Origin: Mustelus asterias
Lineage: Eukaryota
Length of the DNA stretch: 64,000 nucleotides
Reading direction: 5' to 3'
NCBI RefSeq assembly: GCF_964213995.1
Contig: NC_135808.1
Location: 22,940,001-23,004,000, forward strand
Every line of letters begins with the position of its first letter. Position 1 is the stretch's first letter. A program made the translations under genes and the position numbers. Shown piece by piece: positions 1,231 to 59,330 of the stretch. Below the pieces are notes generated by a model, which was not told the origin of the DNA, made no database searches, and worked only from the letters and a program-made list of their open reading frames with translations.

Positions 1231-1269
1231 TCATAAATTTTCTGCCATTCAACATTCCATCCACACAAC

Positions 1270-2000: not shown

Positions 2001-2149
2001 GAAGATCCACTCTGTACCCCAAACATTCAGCGAAAGATCAGAACCATCACAAAACACGATTGATGTTAAATCCTGTGGGAATGACAGACCCCAGTGGCCA
2101 AATTCAGGGAAAACTCTGGGAATTCTGTCTTCCTTAAGGAAATTGAGCC

Positions 2150-2394
2150 CTCCCCCCCCGCACCCTCTCCCCTCCCCCCCAGCACCCTCCCCCCCCGCAC
2201 CCTCCCACCTCACCCCCACCCCCCGCACCCTCCCCCCCTCACTCCCCCGCACCCTCCCCCCCTCCCCCCCAGCACCCTCTCCCCCTCACTCACCGACTCT
2301 CACATCCCCCCTCATTCACCGACTCTCACTCCCCCCTCACTCACCGACTCTCACTCCCCCCTCACTCACTGACTCTCACTCATCCCTTACTCAC
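2150..2394. repeat. Intron-3 25-bp minisatellite remnant and C-rich tract, locus A
   Basis: CACTCACCGACTCTCACTCCCCCCT units grading into a poly-C-rich tract. Confidence 0.85.
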
Positions 2395-4641: not shown

Positions 4642-4962
4642 TCACCTCCTGACTGGTTGGTTGGTTCGATACATGAGGGTCTGAATATTATCTTTGAGAC
4701 ATCGTGCCCCCTCCTGTGTGAGCTTCTTCTTCTGTTCCCAGGACTCAAGCCCCTCGCTCTCCACCATCCACTGCTCCCGGGGGATCAGCTCCCTCCGATC
4801 GCTGTCGTACACAACAAACGGGACACCATCCACATAACCGACAGCCACAAACTCCGGGAAACCTGGAATTGGAGTCATTCCCGTGAGGAAACACCGGAGA
4901 GAGTGAGACACTGAAATATAGAGAGAGAGAATTCAGGATAGACACCCTAAAAACACCAACAC

Positions 4963-5014: not shown

Positions 5015-5070
5015 ATCAGGGCATGAACCCCAAAACACTGATTCCAAACTGAGAGCAAGACCTCCACCCA

Positions 5071-5371
5071 TGCCCCTGTACCCAGCCTGGCATTGCCCCT
5101 CTCACACCCCATCACTCACTGACCCAAGGTTAATGCCCCAGTGCCCAGCCTGGCACTGCCCCTCTCACACCCCATCACTCACTGACCCAGGGTTAATGCC
5201 CCAGTACCCAGCCTGGCATTGCCCCTCTCACACCCCATCACTCACTGACCCAGGGTTAATGCCCCAGTACCCAGCCTGGCATTGCCCCTCTCACACCCCA
5301 TCACTCACTGACCCAGGGTTAATGCCCCAGTACCCAGCCTGGCATTGCCCCTCTCACACCCCATCACTCAC
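5071..5371. repeat. 63-bp intron-1 minisatellite, locus A
   Basis: About 4.7 copies, starting at the exon-1 donor. Confidence 0.93.
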
Positions 5372-9180: not shown

Positions 9181-9325
9181 CTGAGGTTAATATCTAACCC
9201 CGGCACTCCCTGCTCACACCCCATCATCGATCGAAATCACTGCACACAGAGGGACCAGCACATTCCGTTCAAAAATTGTTGCTTCCTTCACCAGGTTGGG
9301 ACGGGAAATCTATGGAAAAACTTTT
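9181..9325 (-). pseudogene. Degenerate relic of an MHC class I leader exon plus one intron-1 repeat unit
   Basis: cacacagagggaccagc...attgttgcttcc...gttggga matches the leader of locus B (30160-30215); the ATG and donor are lost. Confidence 0.55.
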
Positions 9326-19500: not shown

Positions 19501-20215
19501 CCAGGCAAGGTGGTGGAGGCGGACACACTGGGGAATGTTTAAGACTTGTCTAGATAGCCATATGAACGGAGTGGGAATGGAGGGATACAAAAGAATGGTC
19601 TAGTTTGGACCAGGGAGCTGCACGGGCTTGGAGGGCCGAAGGGCCTGTTCCTGTGCTTTATTGTTCTTTGTTCTTAAAACCTATCAGACCCCCAAACACC
19701 AGCAAAACCCATCAGATCCCCAAACACCAGCTAAACCCATCAGACTCCTTAACATCGGTTAAACCCATCAGACCCCCAAACACCAGCAAAACCCATCAGA
19801 CCCCCAAACAACAGCCAAACCCATCAGAACCCCAAACACCAGCTAAACCCATCAGGACCCCAAACACCAGCTAAACCCATCAGAGTCGCAAACACCAGCT
19901 AAACCCAGTAGAGCACCAAACACCAGCTAATCCCATCAGACCACCAAACACCAGCTTAACTCATCAGACCCCCAAACACCAGCAAAACCCATCAGACCCC
20001 CAAACACAAGCTAAACCCATCAGACCCCCAAACACCAGCAAAACCCATCAGACCCCCAAACAACAGCTAAACCCATCAGAACCCCAAACACCAGCTAAAC
20101 CCATCAGGACCCTAAACACCAGCTAAACCCATCAGAGCCGCAAACACCAGCTAAACCCAATAGAGTACCAAACACAGCTAATCCCATCAGACCACCAAAC
20201 ACCAGCTTAACTCCT
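16551..20215. repeat. ~28-bp satellite 3' of locus B, split by a CR1
   Basis: Arrays at 16551-17597 and 19675-20215. Confidence 0.93.
17598..19674 (+). mobile_element. Young 5'-truncated CR1 LINE with a long RT frame
   Basis: ORFs 17832-18314 and 18254-19603 (NYRPVSL, QHGF, GVPQGS, FADD); same subfamily as 3027-4641. Confidence 0.95.
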
Positions 20216-23900: not shown

Positions 23901-26900
23901 CTCGAGCGGTGTTCATTTATCCGTTATCGTAGCGTCTGCATGGTCTCCCCAATGTACCATGTCTCGAGACATCCTTTCCTGCAATGTATCAGGTAGACAA
24001 CGTTGGCCGAGTTGCAAGTGTATGTACCATGTACCTGGTGGATGATGTTCTCACGTGAGATGATGGCATCCGTGTTGATGATCCGGCACATCTTGCAGAG
24101 GTTGCTGTGGCAGGGTTGTGTGGTGTCGTGGTCACTGTTCTCCTGAAGGCTGGGTAGTTTGCTGCAGACAATGGTCTGTTTGAGGTTGTGCAGTTGTTTG
24201 AAGGCAACTGAGCACACCCTGTGTATACGGAGGGCCTGTCTGTAGGGGATGGCTTCTTTAACGTGTTTAGGGTGGAAGCTGGGGAAGTGGAGCATCGTGA
24301 GGTTATCCGTGGGCTTGCGGTACAGTGAAGTGCTGAGGTGACCGTCCTTGATGGAGATGCGTGTGTCCAAGAGTGCAAGCAATTCTGGATAGTCCATGGT
24401 GAGTCTGATGGTGGGATAGAACTTGTTGATGACATCATATCATTGTTTCAGTGACTGTTCGCCATGAATCCAAAGGAAGAAAATGTCATCGATGTATTTA
24501 GTGTATAGCGTTGGTTGAAGGTCCTGAGCATCCCACGATGCTCCACTTCTCCAGCTTCCACCCTAAACACGTTAAAGCAGCCATCCCCTACGGACAAGCC
24601 CTCCGTATTCACAGGATCTGCTCAGATGAGGAGGATCGCAACAGACACCTCCAGACGCTGAAAGATGCCCTCATAAGGACAGGATATGGCGCTCGACTAA
24701 TTGATCGACAGTTCCGATGCGCCACAGCGAAAAACCGCACCGACCTCCTCAGAAGACAAACATGGGACACGGCGGACAAAGTACCCTTCGTCGTCCAGTA
24801 CTTCCCCGGAGTGGAGAAGCTACGACATCTTCTCCGGAGCCTTCAACATGTCATCGATGAAGACGAACATCTTGCCAAGGCCATTCCCACACCCCCACTT
24901 CTTGCCTTCAAACAACCGCACAACCTCAAACAGACCATTGTCCGCATCAAACTACCCAGCCTTCAGGAGAACAGTGACCACGACACCACACAACCCTGCC
25001 ACAGCCACTCTGCAAGACGCGGATGCTATCATCTCACGTGAGAACACCATCCACCAGGTACACGGTACATACACTTTCAACTCGGCCAACGTTGTCTACC
25101 TGATACGTTGCAGGAAAGGATGTCCCGAGGCATGGTACATTGGGGAAACCATGCAGACACTACGACAACAGATGAATGAACACCGCTCGACAATCACCAG
25201 GCAAGACTGTTCTCTTCCTGTTGGGGAAGACTTCAGCAGTCACGGGCATTCTGCCTCTGATATTCGGGTAAGCGTTCTCCAAGGCGGCCTTCACGACACA
25301 CGACAACGCAGAATTGCTGAGCAGAGACTGATCGCCAAGTTCCGCACACATGAGGACGGCCTCAACCGGGATCTTGGGTTCGTGTCACACTATCTGTGAG
25401 CCCCACGACTTGCCTGGGCTTGCAAAATCTCATTAACTGTCCTGGCTGGAGACAATACACATCCCTTTAACCTGTGCTTAACGCTCTCTCCACTCACATT
25501 GTCTGTACCTTTAAGACTTGATTACCTGTAAAGACTCGCATTCCAACCATTATTTTGTAAATTGAGTTTGTGTCTTTATATGCCCTGTTTGTGAACAGAA
25601 CTCCCACTCACCTGGCGAAGGAGCAGTGCTCTGAAAGCTAGTGGCTTCTGCTACCAAATAAACCTGTTGGACTTTAACCTGGTGTTGTGAGACTTCTTAC
25701 TGTGTTTACCCCAGTCCAACACCGGCATCTCCACATCATGACTACCGTAATATCCCATGATACACTGTATTATGTCATACTGAGAAATCCCAGGTTACTC
25801 TGGGCCTTGTCATTCTGTAGTTTCCCAGGACTCAATGGGGCATGTTTCATATCAAATCCTCGACGTACAATTAATTTGCACTAATGGCCATTGTATATTA
25901 TGCATGGAAAATTAATATTTATTTCCCTCTCTCTGTATCTGGGCTGACAGCTCAGCACTGACCCTCCCCTCCTGTGATCCTGGTCTGAGGCTGGGTCCTC
26001 TCTAACAGTGAGAAACAGTCTTACCGTAAATCACCACCAGTGTCTCCTTCATCCCGCTGTGTTCCACCCGACAGGAATACTCGGCCTGGTCCTCTGGATC
26101 AAACTCGACCCATTTCCGGATCTGGTAGGTGCTGTCGGGATTGGGTAAGATCCCAGTGGACAGAGTCTCATCAATCACCACTCCGTCTCTCCACAGATTC
26201 ACCTCGATGGCTTGAGGGTAAAACCCGGTGACGGCACAGGACAGCCGGTTAGAATCACCCAGACGGGTAAAGGACACGACGGGGGCAACTGAGAGAGAAA
26301 GAAAGAGGAGTCAGTACAGGAACTTCGAGATAGAGAGTCCCGGCATCACCCCCTTCACCGACTCTCACTCCCCCCCTCACTCACCGACTCTCACTCCCCC
26401 CTCACTCACCGACTCTCACTCCCCCTCTCACTCACCGACTCTCACTCCCCCCTCACTCACCGACTCTCACTCCCCCCTCACTCACCGACTCTCACTCCCC
26501 CCTCACTCACCGACTCTCACTCCCCCGTCACTCACCGACTCTCACTCCCCCGTCACTCACCGACTCTCACTCCCCCCTCGCTCACCGACTCTCACTCCCC
26601 CCTCACTCACCGACTCTCACTCCCCCCTCACTCACCGACTCTCACTCCCCCCTCACTCACCGACTCTCACTCCCCGACTCCCACCTCACTCACCGACTCC
26701 CACTCCCCCCTCACTCACCGACTCTCACTCCCCCCCCACTCAGCGACTCTCACTCCCCCCTCACTCACCGACTCTCCCTCCCCCTCACTCACCGACTCTC
26801 ACTCCCCCTCATTCACCGACTCTCACTCCCCCCTCACTCACCGACTCTCACTCCCCCCTCACTCACCCCTCACTCACCAACTCTCCCTCCCCCTCACTCA

Positions 26901-29900
26901 CCGACTCTCACTCCCTCCTCACTCACCGACTCTCAGAAGTTTTTGTCCATATTTCAGATATTTCCTCAGCCATTCGATACACTCCCCCTCCAGGTAATGT
27001 TTAAATCGCCTTTTGACGATGACATCCTGATCCCAGATGTTTTTGATGCTCTCCCCCCAGGGGACCGGAGTCACCCACACCATGTGATCCTTGTCGAAGC
27101 TGATAAAATCTTGTCCATTCCACGCGTACTGGTTGAATCCACTTGTGGTCCCATCATCGCTCAGTTCACAGCCAGTCATCATCTGGAAGACATGGATCCC
27201 TGTGGATCAGAAACACAAACAGCCAATCAGTGCCAGTCCCAATGGGAGATCCCACCTCCACAGCCAATCATAGCCAGTCCCACTGATTGGCCCCACCCTC
27301 TGTAGAAACAGCGAATCAAATCCAGTTACACTGAGAGGCGCTTCCCACTACATAGTAGACTGCCAATCAGAGCCAGTTACACAGAGCGGGCCCATGTCCG
27401 ACATGCACATCCAATCAGAGCCAGTCTCACTTGGACATAATCCCTCCACACACACAGCCAATCACATTTACTGTCACATCTCCAATCGCAGCCAATCAGC
27501 CTCTGGCTCCCAGCTCCTGATCCACTCTGGGTTTCTCTTCATTACAAGCTGGATTTCTCTTCATTACAAGCTGGACCCCAAGAGCCAGGTCTGACAAAGT
27601 GTCATCCAGACCTGAAATGTTAGCTCTGTTCTCTCTCCACAGATGCTGTCAGACCTGCTGAGGTTTTCCAGCATTTTCTGTTTTGGATTCAGATTCCAGC
27701 ATCCGCAGTATTCTGCTTTTATATATGGGGCAGAGTGAGGACTCACCTCCTGTCTGGTTGGTCCGGGACATGAGGGTCGGAATACTAGTTTTGAAATGCA
27801 TCTCCCCCTCCCGTACGAGCATCATCTTCTGCTCCCAAAACTCAGACCCATCGCCCTCCACCATCCACCGCTCCGGGTGAATCACCTCCTTCCGATCACT
27901 GTCATATGTCACAAACTGGATATCGTCCACATAACCGACAACCACAAACTCCGGGAAACCCGGGATTGGAGTCATTCCCGTGAGGAAATACCGGAGAGAG
28001 TGAGAGCCTGAAATATAGAGAAAGAGAGAGACATCAGGGTGTGAACCCCAAAACACCAACACCCAGAGAGAGAGACATCAGGGTGTGAACCCCAACATAC
28101 CAACACCCAGAGAGTGAGAGACATCAGGGTGTGAACCCCAAAACACCAACACCCAGAGAGAGAGAGAGAGAGACATCAGGGTGTGAACACCAAAACACCA
28201 ACACCCAGAGAGAGAGAGACATCAGGGTGTGAACCCCAACATACCAACACCCAGAGAGTGAGAGACATCAGGGTGTGAACCCAAAACACCAACACCCAGA
28301 GAGAGAGAGACATCAGGGTGTGAACGCCAACATACCAACACCCAGAGAGTGAGAGACATCAGGGTGTGAACCCCAAAACCCAACACCCAGAGAGAGAGAG
28401 AGAGACATCAGGGTGTGAACCCCAAAACACCAACACCCAGAGAGAGAGAGAGAGACATCAGGGTGTGAACACCAGAACCAGAGCGTTGTGCCCCATTGAC
28501 CTGGTAAAATCCACCTCACTGATATTTGTGTCAAAATTGGAGAACTCTTCAACAATCTGGTGAAACAACAGTCTGACAGAGTTATACTCACTGTGACACA
28601 CGATGTGAAAGGTCGCAACCACCCTCCCCATCCCTGGTTATGGCCTATCTCACTGGCAGGGTGAACTCGAGGGGTGACCAGTCTCATTGGCAGGGTGAAC
28701 CCGGGGATGACCTGTCTCAGTGGCAGGCTGTTTCCAGGGATGACCTGTCTCACTGGCAGCGTGTATCCGGGAATGATCTGTCTCACTGGCAGGGTGGATC
28801 TGGGTGTGACCTGTCTCACTGACATGGTGTTTCCGGGGATGACCTGTCGAAGTGGCAGGGTGTACCCGGGGATGACCTGTCTCACTGGCAGGGTGGATCT
28901 GGGTGTGAGCTGTCTCACTGGCAGGGTGTATCCGGGGATGACCTGTCTCACTGGCAGGGTGGATCTGGGTATGACCTGTCTCACTGGCAGGGTGGACCCA
29001 CCAGACGCTTTGGCACAGTAATCTTCACTGGGAATGGCGTTCCCCTTAGAAACGTTTCTGGACCCGATGAGGTCTCAGGTATTCAGTCAAACTTCGGCAG
29101 CAAAACCTCTATTTGATTGTTACCGAAAATCCTCCCCCAGCTGAGGAATCAGTATCTCTCCATGTTCAACACTCCTTGGAAAAAACACTAAGGGAGATGA
29201 GGACTCAGACTCTACTCTGGGTGGGGCTTGAATGTCCTTCCCTCAGAGTGACTCAGGAATATAACTGCAGACTGAGCAGTCCGAGTCCGGAATGATACAT
29301 CTGTGACTTAGCCTGTGGCCTTTCCTGTGAAAATAAGGAGTGTGATGCCTCTGTAGTTGTCGCAGGCTCCTCGATTAGTCTTCTCTGCAGCATATTGTCT
29401 GTAAACAGTGTGATGGAACTCAGTCTATTTTCCAGCAGAGGGAGCTGCTCATAAAGGTGTGGGAATTGATGGCTCTTTTCCTGCTGGGATTCCATTCTTG
29501 CCAAGAGCCTTTCCGTTCACTAAGCAGCCTAACCAGCCTTCTCAAGCTCAAGTGGTGAAATCAAGTGAACACTATTCCTTGAGCTGTCAACAAAAGTGAG
29601 GTTAGCACTGCTGCCTCACAGCGCCAGGGACCCAGTTTCAATTCTGGCCTTGGGTGACTGTCCCTGTGGAGTTTGCACATTCTCTCCGTGGGTGTGGTTA
29701 AGATATTCTGTCAGAGGGTTGGTGGAGACTCAATGGGTTCCTTCTGCACTGTCGGGATTCTCTGATTCTTCCTCTAACTCATTCACCACAGGAGAATATC
29801 TAGGGGGTGGACTGGGAGATGGACTGGGGGCAACTTTGGTGAGGGCAGAGACATGAACCTTCTTGATCCTTCCTGCACAGCTCACAGGTTGCTATTGTCA

Positions 29901-30208
29901 CAGGAAGTTTAGATTTCTTGATGCATGTGGTGTATTCCTCCAAACCCTCCCTCTCTCGGTCTCTCTCTTAACTCTCCAGCCTCATGTCCCTGCCCTTATT
30001 TCCCTCACAATCTACAATTTTGCTCCTTCTACAGACCCAGTACCCAGTCAGATATTGTTCCTCTCACACCCCATCACTCACTGACCCAGGGTTAATGCCC
30101 CAGTACCCAGCCTGACATTGCCCCTCTCACACCACATCGCTCACCTGTAGACACCTCTCCACACAGAAGGACCAGCTCTATCAGTCCAATCATTGTTGCT
30201 TCCCTCAT
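20638..30208 (-). CDS. MHC class I heavy chain, nonclassical-like (locus B), 7 exons, 348 aa
   Basis: Exons 30145-30208, 27747-28007, 26927-27199, 26025-26288, 21571-21675, 20965-20997, 20638-20684. All junctions are phase-1 GT-AG with no internal stop. Motifs: GSHSLRYF, RTNQT sequon, alpha2 Cys pair, C1-set Ig alpha3. Confidence 0.92.
21440..21550 (+). mobile_element. Rex1/Babar-like RT fragment in intron 5 of B (paralog at 57052-57160 in D)
   Basis: Translates to IMK*FERLVMARINSSLPDCLDPLQF; absent from locus C. Confidence 0.65.
21571..21675 (-). CDS. Locus B exon 5, transmembrane
   Basis: EPKSRSQVAVTVGIVVGVLVLITLIIVAVVIYNKK, AG/GT bounded. Confidence 0.88.
21870..23270 (-). mobile_element. 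Old CR1 in intron 4, shared by B, C (37740-39045) and D (55365-56640)
   Basis: Degenerate RT remnants (QHG, PQGSVLG, FADD-like). Confidence 0.75.
23363..25739. mobile_element. Penelope-like element: two partial copies in inverted orientation in intron 4 of B
   Basis: RT thumb (YRKPT, HP..K.AIPYGQALR), Cys-rich linker, GIY-YIG endonuclease (VVYLIRC...WYIGET), inverted termini. Confidence 0.9.
23448..23484 (-). ncRNA. Minimal hammerhead-ribozyme motif with intact core
   Basis: UCAC-CUGAUGA-A-GGGGC(AGU)GCUCC-GAAA-GC-UU-GUGG. Confidence 0.62.
26025..26288 (-). CDS. Locus B exon 4, alpha3 Ig C1 domain
   Basis: LSCAVTGFYP...W...YSCRVEH, 264 nt. Confidence 0.93.
26352..26926. repeat. 25-bp intron-3 minisatellite, locus B
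   Basis: About 23 units, G-rich on the sense strand. Confidence 0.95.
26927..27199 (-). CDS. Locus B exon 3, alpha2 domain
   Basis: GIHVFQMMTGCEL...YLEGECIEWLRKYL...RV, 273 nt. Confidence 0.93.
27588..27722 (+). mobile_element. Short interspersed element in intron 2 of B, possibly Penelope-related, with a decayed hammerhead-like head
   Basis: ctgacaaagtgtcatccagacctgaaatgtt; related fragment at about 32002-32026; absent from the paralogous introns. Confidence 0.5.
27747..28007 (-). CDS. Locus B exon 2, alpha1 domain
   Basis: TTTCAG|GSHSLRYFLTGMTPIPGFPEF...MSRTNQTG|GTGAGT, 261 nt. Confidence 0.93.
28022..28472. repeat. ~46-bp minisatellite next to the exon-2 acceptor of B
   Basis: 10 copies of ACATCAGGGTGTGAAC with (AG)n spacers. 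Confidence 0.93.
28645..29000. repeat. 33-bp minisatellite in intron 1 of B
   Basis: GACCTGTCTCACTGGCAGGGTG units. Confidence 0.9.
30145..30208 (-). CDS. Locus B exon 1, leader peptide
   Basis: MREATMIGLIELVLLCGEVST then CAG|GTGAGC; the second in-frame ATG at 30193 may be the true start. Confidence 0.8.
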
Positions 30209-32983: not shown

Positions 32984-35900
32984 GTGAGTGATGGGGTGTG
33001 AGAGGGGCAATGCCAGACTGGGTACTGGAGCATTAACCCTGGGTCAGTGAGTGATGGGGTGTGAGAGGGGCAATGCCAGGCTGGGTACTGGAGCATTAAC
33101 CCTGGGTCAGTGAGTGATGGGGTGTGAGAGGGGCAATGCCAGGCTGGGTACTGGAGCATTAACCCTGGGTCAGTGAGTGATGGGGTGTGAGAGGGGCAAT
33201 GCCAGGCTGGGTACTGGAGCATTAACCCTGGGTCAGTGAGTGATGGGGTGTGAGAGGGGCAATGCCAGACTGGGTACTGGGGCATTAACCCTGGGTCAGT
33301 GAGTGATGGGGTGTGAGAGGGGCAATGTCAGGCTGGGTACTGGGTTTCTTAAAGGAGGGAAACTGGGATGTGAGGGAACTGAGAGCAGGGATGTGGGATT
33401 GGAGATCGAGGAGAGAGACAGAGAGAGGGAGAGGTTGAAGGATTACAGGAACAGGAGGGGAATAATCTAAACTCCATTTTCTGCATCCCCACAAAGATCC
33501 ATCTCAATTTTGAAAGCTGCAATTGATCCACAACAGCTGCAGCTTCTTGCGGGAAAGAGGATTTCAGATTTCCACAACCATTTTGGTGAGGAGGTTCCTG
33601 GCTAAAGACAGCAGGCAGCAACCAGGAAAGAGAGAGTGAGTGTAGATGAATAGCAGAGACTGGTTCAAGGCTTCAGCAACAGTGCACGATTAGAGAGAGA
33701 GAGAGAGAGCAGCAGAAGTATAGTGTCATAGAATCCCTGCAGTGCAAAAGAAGGCTATTTATCCCATCGAATCTGCACTGAGAACAATCCCACCTGGGCC
33801 CTATTCCCGTAACCCCATGTATTCATCCTGCTAATCATCTTGACACTAAGGGGCAATTTAGCATGGCCCATCAACCGAACCCGCACATCTTTTGAATGTG
33901 GGAAGAAACCGGAGAACCTGGAGGAAACCTACGGGGAGAACGTACAAACTCCACGCAGACAGTCACCCGAGGCCGGAATTGAACCCGGGTCCCTGGTGCT
34001 ATGAGGCAGCAGTGCTAACCACTCTGCCACCGTGCTACCCATATAATCAGACCCAGTAAAAGACTCCCAGCAGCAATGCATGAATAGCGAGAGAGTGTGT
34101 GTAAAGGAATAGCACAGGCCTAGTTAGGGACTCCAGCAGCAATGCACAATTGGAGAGTGATGGGGAGGGAGGAGAAATCAGACCTGGCTGGAGACTCCAG
34201 CATTTCTACAATTCCTTAGCTGATGTCCTGAGGAAGATTCTGGATGACTGGAGTCTTTTCAGCCTAAGTGACTTCAACAATGTGTTGGGACAGACAGTAA
34301 TCATGGCCATTGTGCCTCGGTCATCACGGTGTGGGCAAGATCATCGATAATTATATTTGACCGAATGCATGGGACTTCTGTGCTGAGGACTCTCAGGGGA
34401 ACTGTATTGTGGAAGCACATCACTGCACCAATACCTCTGGTGGGCCTGTTGTGTGAGTCAGACAGTTATATCCAGCTTCTAAGCACCTTCTGGAGCTTTG
34501 CCATCTGAATGAACTCTCCATCACCAACACTTACCCCCAGGGCAAACATTGCCTCAAAGTATCGTGGCATCGCTCAAGGTGTAACCCTGGCACCAACTAG
34601 ACCTGCGTAATCAAGAGGAGACACAATCTGCCCAGCTTTCTCCACACCCACACCAATCACAGAGCAGATTGTGATAGTGCCCACTGTCCTGTCCGTCGCA
34701 GTGTGAAACTGCATCCCTGAATAATTCACAGTCCCAAACACCATGGCCTGTCGCGTGTTAATGGGTTCGTACCCTGATGTCCCTCTCTGTGTGGGTGTTG
34801 ATGGTTAGGGGTTCAAACCCTGATATCTGTGTGTCAGCGTTTTTAGGGTGCATATCCTGAATTTCTCTCCCTCTCTGTTTTTCAGGCTCTCACTCTCTGC
34901 GGTATTTCCTCTCGGGAATGACCCCGGTCCCCGGTTTCCCGGAGTTTGTAGCTGTCGGTTATGTGGACGATGTCCAGTTTGTTGTGTACGACAGTGATCG
35001 GAGGGAACTAATCCCCCGGGAGCAGTGGATGGTGGAGAGCGAGGGGCTTGAGTCCTGGGAGCGGAAGAAGATGCTTGTACAGGAGCAGGAACGGTATTCC
35101 AAAGCCGATATTCCGCTCTTCATGTCTCGGGCCAACCAGTCAGGAGGTGAGTGCTCACTCTCCCACAACTCTGGGATCAAGTTGGTCAATGTGACTCCTG
35201 CCAGTGTAGTTGGCATTGATTGGCTGTGTGTGTGGTGCTCCCAAGTGACACTGTCTCTGATTGGTTGTTTGTGTTTCTGATCCACAGGGATCCATGTCTA
35301 CCAGACGATGACTGGCTGTGACCTGAGGGATGGTGGGACCACGAGTGGATTCAACCAGTTTGGGTGGGACGGAAAAGATTTTATCAGCTTTGACAAGGAT
35401 CACATGGTGTGGGTGACCCCGATCACATGGGGAGAGATCATCAAAAACAATTTGGACAGGGACATAGCCAACAGCAAGGGATGGAAAAGTTACCTAGAGG
35501 GAGAGTGTATCGAGTGGCTGAAGAAATATCTGGAGTATGGACAGAGAGAACTGAGAGTTGGTGAGTTGGTAAGTGAGAGATGAGATGCCCGGGACTCTCT
35601 ATCTCAAGGTTCCTGTACTGACTCCTCTTTCTTTCTCTCTCAGTTGCCCCCGTCGTGTCCTTTACCCGTCTGGGTGATTCTAACCAGCTGTCCTGTGCCG
35701 TCACCGGGTTTTACCCTCAAGCCATCGAGGTGAATCTGTGGAGAGATGGAGTGGTGATTGATGAGACTCTGTCCACTGGGATCTTACCCAATCACGACAG
35801 CACCTACCAGATCCGGAAATGGGTAGAGTTTGATCCAGAGGACCAGGCCGGGTATTCCTGTCGGGTGGAACACAGCGGGATGAAGGAGACACTGGTGGTG

Positions 35901-40965: not shown

Positions 40966-41129
40966 TGACACATGATGGGTCTGTTCTTTCACTGGATGTT
41001 TGGGGTTCGGAGTGGATCTTAGGGGTTTAGCTGGCGTTTGGGGCTCTAATGGGTTTCGCTGGCGTTTGGGGCTCTGAGGGGTTTAGCTCGTGGTGTGTGG
41101 TTGGAATGTTGAATGATAGAAAATGTATG

Positions 41130-47210: not shown

Positions 47211-47880
47211 CTTGGCATATATTCCTATTCTCATGAAAGAGCATCTTATCCAAACTGACAGTTGGCCAAGGCCGGAATTGAACCCGCGTCCCTGGTACTG
47301 TGAGGCAGCAGCACTAACCACTGCCACTGTGTCACCCACTTGGACACAGGTTGCTTCACATCCTTTAGATCTGTGCACAGAACGGAGACATATTCATAAA
47401 GTAAAAGGAACAGTTGTTTGTTTGCAAATCAGGATATCTCTGAACATAAACAACCCGGTTGTTCACACAGTATTTTAAACTTTACTGTGAGTTTCTTTAA
47501 TTGCTTTTTTCTAACCTGCTTCTGATATTCCACCAACCAGACATCAACAGCCCATTTCTGAAAAGCAGCAACATCCATTTCTTCATCTGATTCAATAATC
47601 TAATCTTTGGCCTCACATCTCCGTGATCTCTCACTATTTGTTCCTTCCTGTCGACTTTCTCCCAAACATTCCAATCTCCCGACTCTGATCCAAGCATCAA
47701 ATCTCCAAATACTGTTTCTTTGTGCACCATTTGACCTTTCAATTTAACTCTGCTCGATCAACTGTCCACTTTCCCAAATCACTTCCTTCCTGAACAAACA
47801 CAGTAACTTCTCAAACAAGGCTCGGCAAGCTGAGACCTATTTTTATCGTGATTGCTTCAATGGTACAAGGTTTAATATAA

Positions 47881-48200
47881 GTACAGGACACAGCTCACAC
47901 ACTGAGAGGGACAGTATCAGTACAGGACACAGCTCACACACTGAGAGGGACAGTATCAGTACAGGACACAGCTCACACACTGAGAGGGACAGTATCTGTA
48001 CAGGACACAGCTCACACACTGAGAGGGACAGTATCAGTACAGGACACAGCTCACACACTGAGAGGGACAGTATCAGTACAGGACACAGCTCACACACTGA
48101 GAGGGACAGTATCAGTACAGCACAGTGCTCACACACTGAGAGGGACAGTATCAGTACAGCACAGTGCTCACACACTGAGAGGGACGCTATCAGTGCAGAA
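47881..48200. repeat. 39-bp minisatellite
   Basis: GTACAGGACACAGCTCACACACTGAGAGGGACAGTATCA units. Confidence 0.93.
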
Positions 48201-52009: not shown

Positions 52010-52073
52010 ATGAGGGAAGCAGCAATGATTGGACTGATAGAGCTGGTCCTTCTGTGTGGAGAGGTGTCTGCAG
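52010..52073 (+). CDS. Locus D exon 1, leader peptide
   Basis: MREAAMIGLIELVLLCGEVSA then CAG|GTGAGT. Confidence 0.8.
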
Positions 52074-52416
52074 GTGAGTGATGGGGTGTGAGAGGGGCAA
52101 TGCCAGGCTGGGTACTGGGGCATTAACCCTGGGTCAGTGAGTGATGGGGTGTGAGAGGGGCAAAGCCAGGCTGGGTACTGGGGCATTAACCCTGGGTCAG
52201 TGAGTGATGGGGTGTGAGAGGGGCAATGCCAGGCTGGGTACTGGGGCATTAACCCTGGGTCAGTGAGTGATGGGGTGTGAGAGGGGCAATGCCAGGCTGG
52301 GTACTGGGGCATTAACCCTGGGTCACTGAGTGATGGGGTGTGAGAGGGGCAATGTCAGGCTGGGTGGAGGCCTTGCTCTCGGTTTGGAATCAGTGTTTTG
52401 GGGTTCATGCCCTGAT

Positions 52417-52452
<36 letters not shown>

Positions 52453-55400
52453 GTGTTGGTGTTTTTAGGGTGTCTATCCTGAATTCTCTCTCTCTCTATT
52501 CCAGGCTCTCACTCTCTCCGGTATTTCTTCACGGGAATGACTCCGATCCCGGGTTTCCCGGAGTTTGTGGCTGTCGGTTCTGTGGACGGTGTCCAGTTTG
52601 TTTTGTACGACAGCGATCGGAGGGAGCTGATCCCCCGGGAGCAGTGGATGGTGGAGAGCGAGGGTCGGGCAGCCTGGGAGCGGAAGAAGGATCTCGCACA
52701 GGAGCAGGAGATGTACTCCAAACTTACTGTTCCACTGCTCATGACCCGCACCAACCAGACAGGAGGTGAGTGCTCACTCTCCCAGCACCCTGGATCCAGG
52801 TGGGAATGAGGAGAAACCCAGAGTGGATCAGGAACCGGGAGCCAGAGGCTGATTGGCTGCGATTGGAGATGTGACAAGAAATGTGATTGGCTGTGAATGT
52901 GTGGAGGGATTGTTTCCAGGGAGGTCTGGCTCTGATTGGCTGTGTGTGAGGGGGGGGGGGGGGGGCAGAGTACTTGATGTTGATTGGCTGGTAGGATGAG
53001 ATCGTCCAGTGAGACTAGTTCTGAGTGGCTGTGCAGGTGGGATCGCCCATTGGGACTGTCTCTGATTGGCTGTTTGTGTTTCTGATCCTTAGGGATCCAT
53101 GTTTACCAGCTGATGACTGGCTGTGACCTGAGGGATGATGGGACCACGAGTGGATTCAACCAAAGGGGATGGGACGGAGATGATTTTATCAGCTTCGACA
53201 AGGATCACATGATGTGGGTGACCCCGGTGCCCTGGGGAGAGATCACCAAAAACAAGTTGGACAGGAGCACAGTCGACATTCAGCGATGGAAACATTACCT
53301 GGAGGTGGAGTGTATCGAGTGGCTGAGGAAATACCTGGAGTACGGACAGAAAGAATTGAGAGTCTGTGAGTGAGGGGGGAGTGAGAGTTGGTGAGTGAGG
53401 GGGGGGAGTGAGAGTCGGTGAGTGAGGGGTGAGTGAAAGTCGGTGAGTGAGGGGGGGAGTGAGAGGCGGTGAGTGAGGGGGGAGTGAGAGTCGGTGAGTG
53501 AGGGGGGAGTGAGAGTCGGTGAGGGAGGGAGGGAGCGAGAGTCGGTGAGTGAGGGGGGAGTGAGAGTCGGTGAGTGAGGGGAGTGAGAGTCGGTGAGTGA
53601 GGGGGGAGTGAGAGTCAGTGAGTGAGGGGGGAGTGAGAGTCGGTGAGTGAGGGGGGAGTGAGAGTCGGTGAGTGAGGGGGGAGTGAGAGTCGGTGAGTGA
53701 GGGGGGAGTGAGAGTCGGTGAGTGAGAGGGGAGTGAGAGTCGGTGAGTGAGGGGGGAGTGAGAGTCGGTGAGTGAGGGGGGAGTGAGAGTCGGTGAGTGA
53801 GGGGGGAGTGAGAGTCGGTGAGTGAGGGGGGAGTGAGAGTCGGGGAGTGAGAGTCGGTGAGTGAGGGGGGAGTGAGAGTCGGTGAGTGAGGGGGGAGTGA
53901 GAGTCGGTGAGTGAGGGGGGGTGAGAGTCGGTGAGTGAGGGGGGAGTGAGAGTCGGTGAGTGAGGGAGGAGTGAGAGTCGGGGAGTGAGAGTCGGTGAGT
54001 GAGGGGGGAGTGAGAGTCGGTGAGTGAGGGGGGAGTGAGAGTCGGTGAGTGAGGGGAGTGAGAGTCGGTGAGTGAGGGGGGAGTGAGAGTCGGTGAGTGA
54101 GGGGGGGTGAGAGTCGGTGAGTGAGGGGGGAGTGAGAGTCGGTGAGTGAGGGGGGAGTGAGAGTCGGTGAGTGAGGGGGGAGTGAGAGTCGGTGAGTGAG
54201 GGGGGAGTGAGAGTCGGTGAGTGAGAGTCGGTGAGTGAGAGTCGGTGAGTGAGGGGGGAGTGAGAGTCGGTGAGTGAGGGGAGTGAGAGTCGGTGAGTGA
54301 GGGGGGAGTGAGAGTCGGTGAGTGGGGGGGGGTGAGAGTCGGTGAGTGAGGGGGGAGTGAGAGTCGGTGAGTGAGGGGGAGTGAGAGTCGGTGAAGGGGG
54401 TGATGCCGGGACTCTTATCTCGAGGTTCCTGTACTGACTCCTCTTTCTTTCTCTCTCAGTTGCCCCCGTCGTGTCCTTTACCCGTCTGGGTGATTCTAAC
54501 CGGCTGTCCTGTGCCGTCACCGGGTTTTACCCTCAAGCCATCGAGGTGAATGTGTGGAGAAACGGAGTGATGATTGATGAGACTCTGTCCAGTGGGATCT
54601 TACCCAATCACGACAGCTCCTACCAGATCCGGAAATGGGTCGAGTTTGATCCAGAGGACCAGGCCGAGTATTCCTGTCGGGTGGAACACAGCGGGATGAA
54701 GGAGACACTGGTGGTGATTTACGGTAAGACTGTTTCTCACTGTTAGAGAGGACCCAGCCTCAGACCAGGATCACAGGAGGGAGGGTCAGTGCTGAGCTGT
54801 CAACCCAGGATATATAGAGAGGGAAATAAATCTTATTCAATGCGTTATATATCATGGTTCCACAGTGCAACGTGATACAGCGTATCATTGGATATTGGGA
54901 TCGCACTGGACCTGGTGTAACATTGGACACAAGAGTAGGTCTGGGCCTGGTGTATTCTGGGATATTACAGTATGGTGGGGCCCAGTGAACCCTGGGATAT
55001 TGCAGTAGTACAGACCGTGGTATATCCTGAGATACTCTCGTAGGACACATCCCAGTGAACCCTGGGATATTGCAGTGGTACAGACCGTGGTGTATCCTGA
55101 GATATTCTCGTAGGACAAAAACCAGTGTATCCTGGGATGTTGCAGTGTGTCAGGGTCTGGTGTATCCTGGGATATTACAGGAGGTTGGGCACCGTGGAAT
55201 ATCAGAGGATGGAGAGAGCCTGGTGTATCCAAGAAACAATGCTTTTCACTGTGTACCAATACATGTGACAATAATAAATCACATCAAATATTACAGTAGG
55301 ACTGGACCCAGTGCATCCTGGAAGTTTGCTTCAGTCAGATTAAGATCAGTATTCAGAGAAATAATGGAATTCCTTCTATTGGAGACAATTCATGAAAATC

Positions 55401-57966
55401 TAGAATCAAATACTATAACAATGAATATTCAGCATGGATTTTGAAATGGAAAATCTTGTTTTACTCCAATTAGTGGATTTTTTGAGGATGTAACAAAGGG
55501 AATAGACAATGGTAATGTAATAGATATAATATCATATAATTTTTTTAATGTAATAGAAAAGGGGGTTCGTGATGGACTGATTGACAAGGTGAAAGCATGT
55601 GGAGTTAGGGGATGAGTGACAGAATGGATCACTCACTGACTTTGGGACAGAAAACAGAGAGTGTGAGTAAAGGGTGTTTCAGAGTTACAGAAAGTGTTCC
55701 ACAAGGATCAGTGCTGGGATCACCGCTGTTCACAAGTTACACTCCATAACTTGGATATTGGAATCAAAAATACCATTTCTTAATTTGCAGATAACATCAA
55801 ATTGGGAGAATTATTTGATTTTGAGGAGAACTGGAATAAATTAATAGGACATGAATAAACTTGAACAAATAGTTGGTAAATAAAGTTCAGCACAGTTAAA
55901 CGTGAGGTATTTTTCAGTTAACGATGAATAGGGAGGGTTGAGGAACAAAGGGATCTTGATGTACAAATACACCAATCAGTAAACATAGAGTTACAGGTTA
56001 GACAATAAACAAAATACAATCGAAAACCAGGTTTGATTTCTCCAGGGATAGAATTGTAAAGTAGTGACTTTATTGCTAAACCTGTATCAAACCTTGGTTA
56101 GACCACATTTAAAGACCGTGTGCAGTTCCGGTCACCATTTCATAAAAAGGATATAGAGTCAGGGGAGAGAGTGTAGAGAAGATTTACAGAGATGATTCCA
56201 GAAATGAGTGGGTGGACATCTCAGGAAAGGATTGACCGGCTGGGTCTCTGCTCTCGGGAAAACAGAAGGCTGAGGGTTGACCGAATCGAGGATTTAAAAT
56301 TAGGAAAGTTTTTTTTATAGGCCAGACACATCGAGAGTGTTCCTCTTGTGGGAAGAGCATATCCAGTGGCCATCAATACAAGAAACCCAATGGGGAATTC
56401 ATGAGAAACCTCTTCACCCAAAGAGTGATGAGAATGTGGAGCTCGCTGCCACAGGGGGTGGCTGAACTGAACAGTATAGTTTAAGGGGAGGATAGACAAG
56501 CAAATGAGGGAAAGGGGAATAGAGTTAAAATGGTTGAATTAGATGAGGAATGATGGGAGAAGGCTCAAGTGGAACATAAATACCAGTATCAACTAGATGG
56601 GCCGGAAGGCCATTTTCTATGTTGTATATCCTGTGTTTCCTGATTCACTCTCACTCTGATTCTCTCTCACATTTCTCTTTCTTTCACTCTGATTCACTCT
56701 TTCATTCTGTCTCTCTGATCTTTCTCTGTCTCTCATTCTCTCTCTTCCTCACTCTTAGTTGCTCATCCTCTCTCTCATTCTCTCCCACTCGCTCACATTC
56801 TATTTCTCTCTGAGTCTCACTGTTCCCTCTCCCTGATTCACTCAGTCTCTCACATTCTGTCTCTCTGATTCTCACTTTTTTCTCTCCCTGACTCACTCAG
56901 TCTCTCTGATTCTCTCTCTCTAACAGAACCAAAGTCTCGCTCCCAGGTTGCTGTTACTGTCGGGATTGTGGTCGGGGTCCTCGTGCTCATCGCTCTCATC
57001 ATTGTGGCTGTCGTCATCTACAACAAGAAAGGTAGGAATTGGAGGGAAAAGAGCGGTGGGTGAACTGTAGTGGATCCAGGCAGTCCGGGAGGCTGGAATT
57101 GATTCGTGCCATGACTAGCTTTTCGAATCATTTCATAACGATGGATGTCAGAGCCACCGGATGACAGCTCACTGGGGGCAGGGATTCTGGGAGAGTATTC
57201 CAGGGTGGCGGTGGCTCAGGCTGTGGATCTCAGATTGGTGTGGGGGCGGGGATGGGGGGCTGGTGGTTGTACAGAGTGGGTGGAAGAGCTGCAGGTTTGG
57301 GATAGGGATGGTAAGGGGCTCATGATAAAGGATGAGTGTCTGAGAATTGTGGGAAGGGCCTCAAATTGGGTGAGGAGTTCAGGGTATCAGTGAGGGCTCA
57401 GCTAAGAGTGAGGGTCTAGGGACAGGACGGGAGTGATGGTCCAGGGTCAGGGTGGGAGTGAGGGTCTTGTGTCAGGATGGGAGTGAGGGTCTCTGGTTGT
57501 GGTGGGAGTGAGGGTTCAGAATTGTGTTGTTGGGGCTCAGTGCGAGTGAGAGTTCCAGCCTCTGTCTCTGATTTTCTCTCAGTCTCGTCACTCACTGAGC
57601 ATTCCATGTTTTACAGGGAGAGGGAAGAGCAACTACAATCCTGCAAATAGTAAGCTGATCATCAAACATTGTCCCTGTGCAACTGTGTACATCATTGTTC
57701 ATTCTGTTTCAACGTTAGTTTGTGTGTGTGTGTGTGCGTGCATCGTGCGTTTCTGTGTGGGTGTGTGGGCTTCTGTGTGTCGCCGTTAGTATGGGTGTGT
57801 GAGAACCTCTTTCTCTGTGTCTCTCTGTCTCTCTCATTCTCTCTTTATCATATTCACAGTCTCTGCCTCTGTCTCTCTGATGTTGAACAATGTTTTAACA
57901 CCTCTTCTTCCTTTAACAGCTTCTGATGATGGGGATTCCTCATCCAGATCCTCCACAAGTACCTGA
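52010..57966 (+). CDS. MHC class I heavy chain, nonclassical-like (locus D), 7 exons, 348 aa
   Basis: Exons 52010-52073, 52505-52765, 53093-53365, 54460-54723, 56927-57031, 57617-57649, 57920-57966. Phase-1 GT-AG junctions, open frame. Confidence 0.93.
52074..52365. repeat. 63-bp intron-1 minisatellite, locus D
   Basis: About 4.6 copies, starting at the donor. Confidence 0.93.
52505..52765 (+). CDS. Locus D exon 2, alpha1 domain
   Basis: GSHSLRYFFTGMTPIPGFPEF...MTRTNQTG, 261 nt. Confidence 0.93.
53093..53365 (+). CDS. Locus D exon 3, alpha2 domain
   Basis: GIHVYQLMTGCDL...YLEVECIEWLRKYL, 273 nt. Confidence 0.93.
53366..54395. repeat. 25-bp intron-3 minisatellite, locus D
   Basis: About 40 units of GTGAGTGAGGGGGGAGTGAGAGTCG. 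Confidence 0.95.
54460..54723 (+). CDS. Locus D exon 4, alpha3 domain
   Basis: C1-set Ig motifs, 264 nt. Confidence 0.93.
56927..57031 (+). CDS. Locus D exon 5, transmembrane
   Basis: Hydrophobic span followed by YNKK, AG/GT bounded. Confidence 0.88.
57617..57966 (+). CDS. Locus D cytoplasmic exons 6 (57617-57649) and 7 (57920-57966)
   Basis: GRGKSNYNPAN + TSDDGDSSSRSSTST*. Confidence 0.85.
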
Positions 57967-58389: not shown

Positions 58390-59330
58390 GGAGTTAAGCT
58401 GGTGATTGGTGGTCTGATGGGTTTCGCTGGTGTTTTGTATTCTATTGGGTTTTGCTGGTGTTTGGGGCTCTGATGGGTTTAGCTGGTGTTTGGGGTCCTG
58501 ATGGGTTTAGCTGGTGTTTGGGGATCTGATGGGTTTTGCTGGTGTTTGGGGGTCTGATGGGTTTTGCTGGTGTTTGGGGCTCCGATGGGTTTTGCTGGTG
58601 TTTGGGGCTCTGATATGTTTTGCTGGTGTTTGGGGGTCTGATGGGTTTAACTGGTGTCAGGGAGTCTGATGGGTTTAGCTGGTGTTTGGGGCTCTGATGG
58701 GTGTAGCTGGTGTTTGGGTTTCTGCTGGGTTATCTGGTGTTTGGAGGTCTGATGGATTGAGCTGGTGTTTGGGGCTCTGATGGGTTAGCTGATGCTTGGG
58801 GTCTGATGGGTTTTGCTGGTGTTTGGGGGTCTGATGGGTTTTGCTGGTGTTTGGGGTCTGATGGGATTTGCTGGTGTTTGGGGCTCTGATGGGTTGAGCT
58901 GGTGTTTGGGGCTCTGATGGGTTCAGCTGGTGTTTGGGGCTCTGATGGGTTTCGCTCGTGTTTGGGGCTCTAATGGGTTTTGCTGGTGTTTGAGGGTCCG
59001 ATGGGTTTCGCTGGTGTTTGGGGATCTGATGGGTTTTGTTGGTGTTTGGGGCTCTGATGGGTTTAGCTGGTGTTTGGAGGTCTGATGGGTTTTGCTGGTG
59101 TTTGGGGCTCTGATGGGTTTAGCTGGTGATTGGTGCTCTGATGGTTTAGCTGGTGTTTGGGGCTCTGATGGGTTTAACTGGTGTTTAGGGCTCTTGTGGG
59201 TTTTGCTGGTGTTTGGGGCTCCGAAGGGTGTTGCTGGTGTTAGGGGCTTTTGTGGGTTTAGCTGCTGTTTGGGGCTCTGATGGGTTTCGCTGGTGTTTCG
59301 GGGGTCTGATGGGTTTTGCTGGTGTTTGTG
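58390..59330. repeat. ~28-bp satellite 3' of locus D
   Basis: Reverse complement of the 1270-2000 unit. Confidence 0.95.

What the first reader, a model, noticed from the sequence alone, without database searches (positions are those of the whole stretch)
53366..54395. Intron-3 minisatellite is a tandem array of the gene's own splice donor, placed at the variable/constant boundary
The 25-bp unit GTGAGTGAGGGGGGAGTGAGAGTCG rebuilds the exon-3 end plus donor (GAGAGTCG|GTGAGT) at every junction. This gives about 40 consensus-like 5' splice sites in D and about 23 in B. C has no array (intron only 83 nt). In D the real donor is T|GTGAGT, a poorer match than the G|GTGAGT decoys. Use of any decoy reads GE*/CE* and would give an alpha1-alpha2-only product or NMD. 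The sense strand has a G6 run every 25 nt (G4/R-loop prone). The array lies exactly where divergence drops and where locus A is broken. Inference: a copy-number-tunable splicing control and/or a recombination hotspot that uncouples groove exons from the constant half.
Basis: partly seen in the sequence, partly recalled or inferred. Interest (0 to 1): 0.78.

Follow-up and report, generated by a model that had tools for sequence, protein, structure and literature searches.

The report
Repeated splice donor, shark MHC intron
A 25-base repeat copies the splice signal at the start of one intron about 40 times in a shark immune gene; this kind of repeat is already known from several human genes, where the first copy is the one normally used, and the RNA seen here fits that.

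Summary
The array is real: about 42 units in gene D with 39 G|GTGAGT decoys, about 23 in B (19 decoys), 4 in A, none in C. The genes are Mustelus asterias nonclassical UBA-type class I. It is a new member of a known kind, the donor-spanning minisatellite (human F7, ABCA7, IFI6, CBS); this scan noted it before in three other cartilaginous-fish genes. In F7 minigenes neither 1-12 copies nor stronger G|GTGAGT decoys moved the donor. In RNA contigs here, the readable listed exon-3 ends ran straight into exon 4. One contig stayed unexplained, the tables were cut and D's own T|GT junction was not seen, so a leak up to about 10% remains possible. The divergence drop is real, but there is no constant half. 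Exon 4 is a homogenised island (2-3%) beside an intron 4 that is 12-14% diverged. Array-free C shows the same drop, and alpha3 homogenisation appears across shark species and is known in mammals. Intron 1 also starts with a donor-anchored array. Best reading: a near-neutral repeat, tolerated because the upstream donor wins and leaks hit an in-frame stop, and carried along in exon-4 conversion tracts.

The parts
53357..54394 (+). Intron-3 minisatellite of gene D: 25-bp unit made of the last 8-9 nt of exon 3 plus the first 16-17 nt of intron 3; about 42 units, 39 G|GTGAGT decoys
53093..53365 (+). D exon 3 (alpha2); true donor T|GTGAGT at 53365/53366
   Evidence: the D protein equals RefSeq P0081 (XP_078073675.1/676.1) with a V-F junction
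54391..54790 (+). Homogenised island: intron-3 tail, exon 4 (54460-54723, alpha3) and about 65 nt of intron 4; 2-3% divergence among B, C and D
55290..56640 (+). Core of D intron 4, 12-14% diverged from B and C, showing that the 3' half is not one constant block
56897..57051 (+). Second homogenised island around exon 5 (56927-57031, TM); 0.6-2% divergence
52010..52073 (+). D exon 1 (leader), identical in A, C and D
52074..52365 (+). Intron-1 minisatellite of D: 63 bp x 4.6, starts at the exon-1 donor, A|GTGAGTGA decoys, read-through GE*
52505..52765 (+). D exon 2 (alpha1)
   Evidence: spliced joint of 327 nt, GT..AG
26355..26935 (-). Intron-3 array of gene B: about 23 units, 19 G|GTGAGT decoys, same consensus unit as D; true donor G|GTGAGT at 26927/26926
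   Evidence: the B protein reads the same as RefSeq P0018
35561..35643 (+). Gene C intron 3: 83 nt, no array, one G|GTAAGT decoy at +8; natural control
   Evidence: the C protein reads the same as RefSeq P0019
2280..2403 (-). Locus A (pseudogene) intron-3 array: 4 full units and the start of a fifth
2149..2279 (-). 131-nt, 76% G low-complexity filler joining A's array to sequence equivalent to D about 58290 (3' end of the gene); exons 4-7 are absent
32984..33343 (+). Intron-1 63-bp array of C (5.7 copies)
5070..5371 (-). Intron-1 63-bp array of A (4.8 copies)

Best explanation
A donor-spanning minisatellite of the F7/ABCA7 type in intron 3 of shark nonclassical UBA class I genes, close to neutral for splicing. 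Origin (inferred): slippage or unequal exchange duplicated the exon-3 end plus donor, helped by GAGTGAG occurring twice within the unit, and the array then expanded. Tolerance: the most upstream donor is used (shown for F7; consistent with RNA here). Any leak to a decoy keeps the in-frame TGA at +6..+8 and should go to NMD (reading frame shown, NMD inferred). The array has almost no YAG and no AATAAA, so it forms neither a pseudo-exon nor a truncated transcript (sequence shown). Place at the divergence step: exon 4 of these paralogs is repeatedly homogenised by inter-locus gene conversion, as alpha3 is in mammals, while conversion across the groove exons is rarer or selected against. The array abuts exon 4's island and is carried along as a passenger (homogenisation shown, passenger role inferred).
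For: F7 minigenes: 1-12 monomers did not change the donor, and downstream G|GTGAGT pseudo-sites (CV 91) did not compete with an upstream CV-74 donor (PMC1557585). ABCA7: 25-bp unit beginning with the donor GT; one-unit retention about 2% and unaffected by VNTR size (PMC5954066). RNA contigs: 5 of 24 listed loose-end rows lie at the exon-3 end in the three spliced runs. Four read straight into exon 4; the fifth (X17, 2 contigs, agreement 0.73) mixes exon-4 letters with an unidentified sequence. No listed row falls at the first decoys (53390, 53417). Depth at 53365 is 0 in X18 and X1 and 21.9 in X17, against about 190-270 at 53351. 32 of 32 M. asterias protein models examined have an unbroken alpha2/alpha3 junction, D included. 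The array has 1 YAG and 0 AATAAA in 1025 nt. Island pattern: exon 4 plus flanks 1.9-3.2%, intron-4 core 12-14%, intron 2 12-15%, groove 4-fold sites 21-30% (Fisher p 0.0004-0.002). C has the same island without an array. In six shark species alpha3 is 0.05-0.13 apart within species and 0.16-0.18 between, while the groove is about as far apart within as between. Exon-4 homogenisation is described in mammals (PMC1403747). A second donor-anchored array opens intron 1.
Against: D's own T|GT-to-exon-4 junction was not seen in any RNA run; the D-like transcripts there appear to end exon 3 with G, so the weak-donor case is untested on RNA. Logan contigs drop rare forms, 79 loose ends were hidden, array-matching contigs were present in RNA (depth 23 in X17, 9 in X18, 351 in X1), and the array status of the expressed alleles is unknown. 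Protein models cannot show stop-containing forms. IFI6 and CBS do use the first two pseudo-sites (second-hand). ABCA7 length does raise skipping of the downstream exon. The A, B and D homogenised tract starts within about 10 nt of the array's first base, and A's deletion ends in the array. The F7 data are from mammalian cells.
Confidence: 0.68

Rival explanations
1. The arrays actively help inter-locus conversion. G-rich, multi-register repeats start or resolve tracts, so exon 4 (and exon 1, through the 63-bp array) is homogenised while the groove cassette between the two arrays is spared.
For: The unit is identical in A, B and D although neighbouring introns differ by 12-15% (chance of a 25-mer staying identical 0.02-0.04 per pair). 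B and D share a 14-nt variant unit and the same 3' end. The tract starts at the exon-3 end. The exon-1 tract ends in or at the 63-bp array for B and C. A's deletion ends in the array. G4Hunter mean 1.32 and GC skew 0.87. alpha1~alpha2 rho 0.85 against alpha2~alpha3 0.06.
Against: C has the same island without an array. The island's 3' edge, about 65 nt into intron 4, has no repeat. The exon-5 island has no donor array. alpha3~tail is also low (rho 0.15). alpha3 homogenisation is family-wide and known in mammals. There are no canonical G3+N1-12 quadruplex motifs and 1 RGYW motif, so it is not switch-region-like. Only 4 loci were available as DNA.
Confidence: 0.17
2. ABCA7-like quantitative effect: array length does not move the donor but lowers expression or raises in-frame skipping of exon 4, giving an alpha3-less membrane class I.
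For: In ABCA7 the same architecture (25-bp unit starting at the donor GT) raises downstream exon skipping 3-4-fold and lowers expression. Exon 4 is 264 nt with phase-1 introns on both sides, so skipping keeps the frame. Thousands of human tandem repeats associate with splicing (PMC10078293, listing and passages).
Against: No listed loose end joins exon 3 to exon 5 (table cut). The 32 protein models examined all keep alpha3 after alpha2. The ABCA7 effects involve alleles of several kb; these arrays are 0.6-1.0 kb.
Confidence: 0.09
3. One reading: decoy donors out-compete the weak T|GT donor in proportion to copy number, tuning output towards NMD or a secreted alpha1-alpha2 product.
For: Decoys have one more U1 pair than D's true donor. 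IFI6 and CBS use proximal pseudo-sites (second-hand). D's T|GT junction was not seen in RNA.
Against: F7 copy number and stronger G|GTGAGT decoys had no effect. ABCA7 unit retention was length-independent. No decoy junction is listed in three spliced runs. B's true donor equals its decoys. There is no poly(A) signal to let a truncated product escape NMD.
Confidence: 0.05
4. The array is an assembly artefact.
For: A's junction has a low-complexity G filler of the kind long reads can mis-assemble.
Against: The arrays sit at the same position in three loci, with ordered variant units. An independent DNA-like run has array-type contigs at depth 23,000-40,000 against 30-340 on exon 3.
Confidence: 0.01

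Closest known systems
Human F7 intron 7 37-bp VNTR (Borensztajn et al. 2006, PMC1557585; read: abstract, introduction, results and part of the discussion, parts 1-4 of 6)
   Same: The first unit spans the exon-intron boundary and repeats the donor down the intron; units carry G runs; only the upstream site is used, whatever the copy number (1-12) and with G|GTGAGT decoys.
   Different: Here about 42 copies rather than 5-9; D's true donor differs from its decoys at -1; the array is shared by tandem paralogs; shark, not human.
Human ABCA7 intron 18 25-bp VNTR (De Roeck et al. 2018, PMC5954066; passages)
   Same: Same unit length; the unit starts with the donor GT; one-unit retention gives a premature stop and NMD; about 24 units in the reference.
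   Different: There, length raises skipping of the next exon and lowers expression; no such effect is shown here, and allele lengths here are unknown.
IFI6 (6-16) intron 2, CBS intron 13, LMNB2 and PDGF intron 4 minisatellites (second-hand, from the introduction of PMC1557585)
   Same: Donor-spanning arrays of 10-25 units.
   Different: IFI6 and CBS also use two proximal pseudo-sites; LMNB2 and PDGF use only the true site; which pattern holds for D is not settled.
Concerted evolution of class I exon 4 (alpha3) in rodents and primates (Joly and Rouillon 2006, PMC1403747; passages)
   Same: alpha3 is homogenised within species while groove lineages are older.
   Different: The passages seen name no minisatellite at the boundary ('intron 3' has 0 occurrences); here an array sits at the island's 5' edge in 3 of 4 loci.
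Shark UBA nonclassical class I lineage (Verissimo et al. 2023, PMC10751288, passages and one supplement search; PMC12562908, passages)
   Same: Multicopy tandem class Ib cluster derived from UAA; the window proteins group with nurse shark AAC60347, labelled UBA in that supplement.
   Different: The searchable papers say nothing on intron structure ('intron' and 'minisatellite' have 0 occurrences in the PMC10751288 main text).

Membership tests
Donor-spanning minisatellite (F7/ABCA7/IFI6/CBS type) | Tandem array with a unit of 10-100 bp | tested here: met
   25 bp x 41.5
Donor-spanning minisatellite (F7/ABCA7/IFI6/CBS type) | First unit spans or starts at the exon-intron boundary, so the donor is repeated in the intron | tested here: met
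   The array starts at 53357, inside exon 3; 39 G|GTGAGT decoys
Donor-spanning minisatellite (F7/ABCA7/IFI6/CBS type) | The upstream donor is the main one used | tested here: inconclusive
   Readable listed RNA junctions use the proximal donor, but the tables were cut, D's T|GT junction was not seen and the array status of expressed alleles is unknown; the RefSeq D model uses it
Donor-spanning minisatellite (F7/ABCA7/IFI6/CBS type) | Copy number varies between alleles (VNTR) | not testable with these tools
   Varies between paralogs (0, 4, about 23, about 42); no second haplotype or genome was held
Shark UBA nonclassical class I | Groups with nurse shark UBA (AAC60347) rather than with UAA-like sequences | tested here: met
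   The alpha3 tree places all 13 Mustelus rows in a clade with P0053 (FastTree support 0.88), apart from Heterodontus P0062/P0060/P0056; P0053 = AAC60347 = UBA
Shark UBA nonclassical class I | Multicopy tandem cluster | tested here: met
   4 loci in the window; many further M. asterias models, all with a longest contig of 140,552,254 bases
Shark UBA nonclassical class I | Loss of conserved peptide-terminus anchor residues | tested here: met
   At positions equivalent to Y7, Y59, R84, T143, K146, W147, Y159, Y171 (set recalled): D YARTKLYY, B YFRIIWYY, C YSRINLYY
Shark UBA nonclassical class I | Cluster flanked by c4 and rxrb | not testable with these tools
   Stated in PMC10751288; no genome held for this window
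Ig switch-region-like recombination element | G-rich non-template strand | tested here: met
   GC skew 0.87, G4Hunter mean 1.32
Ig switch-region-like recombination element | Dense AID hotspots (RGYW, AGCT; motifs recalled) | tested here: not met
   1 RGYW, 0 WRCY, 0 AGCT in 1025 nt
Recombination hotspot separating variable and constant halves | Everything 3' of the site is exchanged as one block | tested here: not met
   Intron-4 core 12-14% diverged between the exon-4 and exon-5 islands
Recombination hotspot separating variable and constant halves | Breakpoints enriched at the array and dependent on it | tested here: inconclusive
   The tract edge coincides with the array in A, B and D, but array-free C shows the same island; only 4 loci as DNA

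The most novel reading that the evidence does not exclude
In shark UBA genes the diverged groove cassette (exons 2-3) is bracketed by two donor-anchored G-rich minisatellites (63 bp after exon 1, 25 bp after exon 3), both homogenised between paralogs. They would act as entry or exit registers for inter-locus conversion that keeps leader and alpha3 uniform while old groove lineages persist. Array length might also tune in-frame exon-4 skipping to an alpha3-less class I, as VNTR length tunes exon skipping in ABCA7. This would give a sequence-level cause for the long-debated concerted evolution of alpha3.
Probability: 0.13. Interest if true: 0.6.

Novelty: new member of a known kind. Interest (0 to 1): 0.22.

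Why it matters
As read here it matters modestly. It is a large natural example of a donor-spanning minisatellite, with a ready copy-number series in near-identical contexts (0, about 23 and about 42 units; T or G at -1), so upstream-donor preference could be tested outside mammals. It also shows island-type exon-4 homogenisation in shark UBA genes at DNA level. If the arrays proved to direct conversion tracts or to tune exon-4 skipping, they would offer a mechanism for concerted evolution of class I alpha3 domains, but nothing here shows that.

Tried and rejected
No whole genome is held, so the other paralogs' introns, genome-wide counts of the unit and a cluster-wide breakpoint scan were not possible. 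The run search listed no holder on record as RNA. X17, X18 and X1 were taken as RNA because they show the spliced 327-nt joint and almost no intron-2 cover. Contig depth is only a rough guide. The second X17 contig at the exon-3 end could not be placed in the window (0 matches). High array depth in the DNA-like run X15 could come from this cluster alone, so no genome-wide repeat family is claimed. A switch-region analogy was rejected for lack of AID motifs, and canonical G4 motifs were absent at loops up to 12 nt. A crossover hotspot giving a constant 3' half was rejected. The GE* stop as a designed feature was rejected, since it is generic to phase-1 GTGAGTGA donors. Mantel p-values are indicative only: the 19 units include near-identical duplicates and alpha3 has few variable sites. 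Trees used 56 hand-picked proteins out of about 97 fetched by then; 3 were dropped from the groove tree and 1 from the alpha3 tree for length. The KIR paper (PMC2816608) had no relevant minisatellite breakpoint. PMC2812944 and PMC6523485 gave background only. The UEA paper PMC8454915 is not held. Paper searches showed no description of this array in shark class I genes, but the library lacks most subscription journals, and the one primary shark class Ib paper asked for was not held. Earlier-findings look-ups by place, by sequence and by MHC words were empty. The first exon map was off by one base and was redone.
Full report
Setting. The window holds four tandem MHC class I loci: A and B on the minus strand, C and D on the plus strand. 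The translations of B and C read the same as Mustelus asterias RefSeq proteins P0018 and P0019, and D equals P0081, XP_078073675.1/676.1. The nearest solved structure is 6LUP, a 267-residue class I chain; that it is from nurse shark is recalled. In an alpha3 tree all 13 Mustelus rows fall in a clade with nurse shark AAC60347, which the supplement of PMC10751288 labels UBA. Several peptide-anchor positions are substituted. These are therefore nonclassical UBA-type genes. No genome is held for the window.

Observation. TRF finds a 25-bp array at 53357-54394 with 41.5 copies. The unit, with up to 3 mismatches, occurs 47 times in the window, only in intron 3 of A, B and D, against 0 in 100 shuffles. 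It consists of the last 8-9 nt of exon 3 and the first 16-17 nt of intron 3. D has 39 G|GTGAGT decoys behind a T|GTGAGT true donor (5 against 6 Watson-Crick pairs to U1, U1 sequence recalled). B has about 23 units and 19 such decoys behind an identical true donor. A has 4 units. C has an 83-nt intron with no array but one G|GTAAGT at +8. An exact G6 run occurs 26 times in about 43 D units. Any downstream donor keeps the TGA at +6..+8, giving CE* or GE*. That follows from any phase-1 GTGAGTGA donor. Intron 1 of A, C and D also opens with a donor-anchored array (63 bp x 4.6-5.7) and also reads GE*. Six of the 24 annotated donors in the window start an array, though these are two homologous positions, not six independent events.

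Splicing, precedents. In human F7 a 37-bp VNTR spans the exon 7 donor. Changing it to 1-12 copies did not move the donor, and downstream pseudo-sites improved to G|GTGAGT (CV 91) did not compete with the upstream CV-74 site; only perfect sites did (PMC1557585, parts 1-4 of 6 read). The same paper reports, second-hand, that IFI6 and CBS also use two proximal pseudo-sites, while LMNB2 and PDGF use only the true one. ABCA7 intron 18 has a 25-bp unit starting with the donor GT: one-unit retention is about 2% and independent of length, but skipping of the next exon rises 3-4-fold with length (PMC5954066, passages).

Splicing, RNA here. I laid 4 of the 18 listed runs on 52480-53445. X17, X18 and X1 show the spliced exon 2-exon 3 joint, and X17 and X18 contain pieces 0-2 letters from D. 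Five of the 24 listed loose-end rows lie at the exon-3 end in these runs. Four read directly into exon 4. The fifth (X17, two contigs, agreement 0.73) mixes exon-4 letters with a sequence I could not place. None is listed at the first decoys. Depth at 53365 is 0 in X18 and X1; in X17 it is 21.9, from one contig with G, against 190-270 fourteen bases upstream. So decoy use is at most about a tenth in X17, if depth can be trusted that far.

Splicing, limits. 79 loose ends were not shown, contigs lose rare forms, and array-matching contigs exist in these runs (depth 23, 9 and 351). The array status of the expressed alleles is unknown. No contig carried D's T at -1; the D-like transcripts there seem to end exon 3 with G. 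The weak-donor case itself is therefore untested on RNA. All 32 M. asterias models examined have an unbroken alpha2/alpha3 junction, six units among them with the T-type V-F junction, but protein models cannot show stop-containing forms. The array has 1 YAG and no AATAAA in 1025 nt, so neither a pseudo-exon nor a polyadenylated alpha1-alpha2 message is encoded; leaks should be NMD substrates (inference).

Recombination, the divergence step. It is real and not just protein constraint. Synonymous differences are 0.23-0.42 in exons 2-3 and 0-0.03 in exon 4. At 4-fold sites the counts are 10/47 to 14/46 against 0/39 to 1/38 (Fisher p 0.0004-0.002). Among 19 Mustelus units, alpha1 and alpha2 distances correlate (rho 0.85) while alpha2 and alpha3 do not (0.06); alpha3 and the tail correlate only weakly (0.15) (p-values indicative).

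Recombination, no constant half. Identity falls again about 65 nt into intron 4. The intron-4 core differs by 12-14%, like intron 2 at 12-15%, while exon 4 with flanks differs by 2-3% and exon 5 with flanks by 0.6-2%. These are homogenised islands, the mark of local gene conversion, not one crossover point. C, without an array, has the same exon-4 island. Across six shark species alpha3 is 0.05-0.13 apart within and 0.16-0.18 between species, while the groove is about as far apart within (0.23-0.42) as between (0.33-0.40), and the groove tree has cross-species pairs. Whether those species have arrays is unknown. Exon-4 homogenisation is described for rodents and primates (PMC1403747, passages).

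The unit is identical in A, B and D (chance 0.02-0.04 per pair at intron background). The tract starts within about 10 nt of the exon-3 end. The exon-1 tract ends in or at the 63-bp array for B and C. A's deletion runs from the array, through a 131-nt G-rich filler, to the 3' end of the gene. A is also disabled at exon 2, and the filler may be an assembly fault. The array is G-skewed (0.87) with a G4Hunter mean of 1.32, but it has no canonical G4 motif at loops up to 12 nt and 1 RGYW, so it is not switch-region-like. With four loci I cannot separate an array that rides in conversion tracts from one that promotes them; C argues that it is not needed.

Mechanism. Shown: unit anatomy, in-frame stop, lack of acceptor and poly(A) signals, island-type homogenisation, sharing of the unit between loci, and proximal-donor junctions for G-type transcripts. 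Inferred: origin by slippage at the doubled GAGTGAG, upstream-donor preference in shark as in mammals, NMD of leaks, and passenger status in conversion. I put this reading at 0.68, active promotion of conversion at 0.17, an ABCA7-like length effect at 0.09 and decoy-driven tuning at 0.05.

Novelty. The element is a new member of a known kind. My searches showed no description of it in shark class I genes, within a library that did not hold the one primary shark class Ib paper I asked for. Earlier notes of this scan report the same arrangement in GIPC1, EMILIN1 and MRPS18C of cartilaginous fish. These are unchecked and I had reached the F7 comparison before reading them, but they suggest such arrays are not rare in this group. 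Interest 0.22. The boldest reading left open, two arrays bracketing the groove cassette and steering conversion or exon-4 skipping, has probability about 0.13 and interest 0.6 if true.

Noticed in passing
window 52074-52365 (+), 32984-33343 (+), 5070-5371 (-), about 30040-30144 (-): Intron 1 begins with a 63-bp donor-anchored array, near-identical in A, C and D (first unit identical in A and D) and about 1.5 units in B; with the intron-3 array it brackets the diverged exons 2-3.
   Followed up: partly
window 35569-35574 (+): Gene C has a G|GTAAGT site 8 nt downstream of its true exon-3 donor, a better U1 match than the true site; it looks like the remnant of one repeat unit.
   Followed up: partly
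window 4645-4660 (-) and about 3260-4640 (-): Locus A exon 2 has a 4-nt duplication (frameshift) and an altered donor, followed by a retroelement-like insertion that makes intron 2 about 2 kb; A is a pseudogene apart from the array break.
   Followed up: partly
window 2149-2279 (-): A 131-nt, 76% G filler of GAGGGTGC-type units, found nowhere else in the window, joins A's array to the gene's 3' end; real repair filler or assembly error.
   Followed up: partly
window 1267-1953, 16552-17597, 19677-20211, 41017-41088, 58393-59328: A 28-bp tandem repeat lies just 3' of each class I gene and marks the duplication unit; copy number ranges from about 3 to 37.
   Followed up: no
RefSeq P0017/P0077/P0079 against P0081/P0086: The T at exon-3 position -1 (V-F junction) and the same cytoplasmic tail are shared by two different groove lineages, a hint that at least one exchange point lay inside exon 3, upstream of the array.
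   Followed up: partly
runs X17 and X18 on window 53340-53365: D-like transcripts appear to end exon 3 with AGA (R) and G at -1 instead of D's AAA (K) and T, suggesting allelic or interspecies mosaicism at the exon-3 end.
   Followed up: partly
window 9208-9290 (-): A decayed copy of exon 1 (about 74% identity) upstream of locus A, next to a 37-39-bp tandem repeat that recurs at 47876-48198.
   Followed up: no
RefSeq P0015/P0093/P0095: Gene models join an A-like orphan exon 3 to exon 2 of a neighbouring gene; possibly read-through splicing from truncated loci, or annotation fusions.
   Followed up: no
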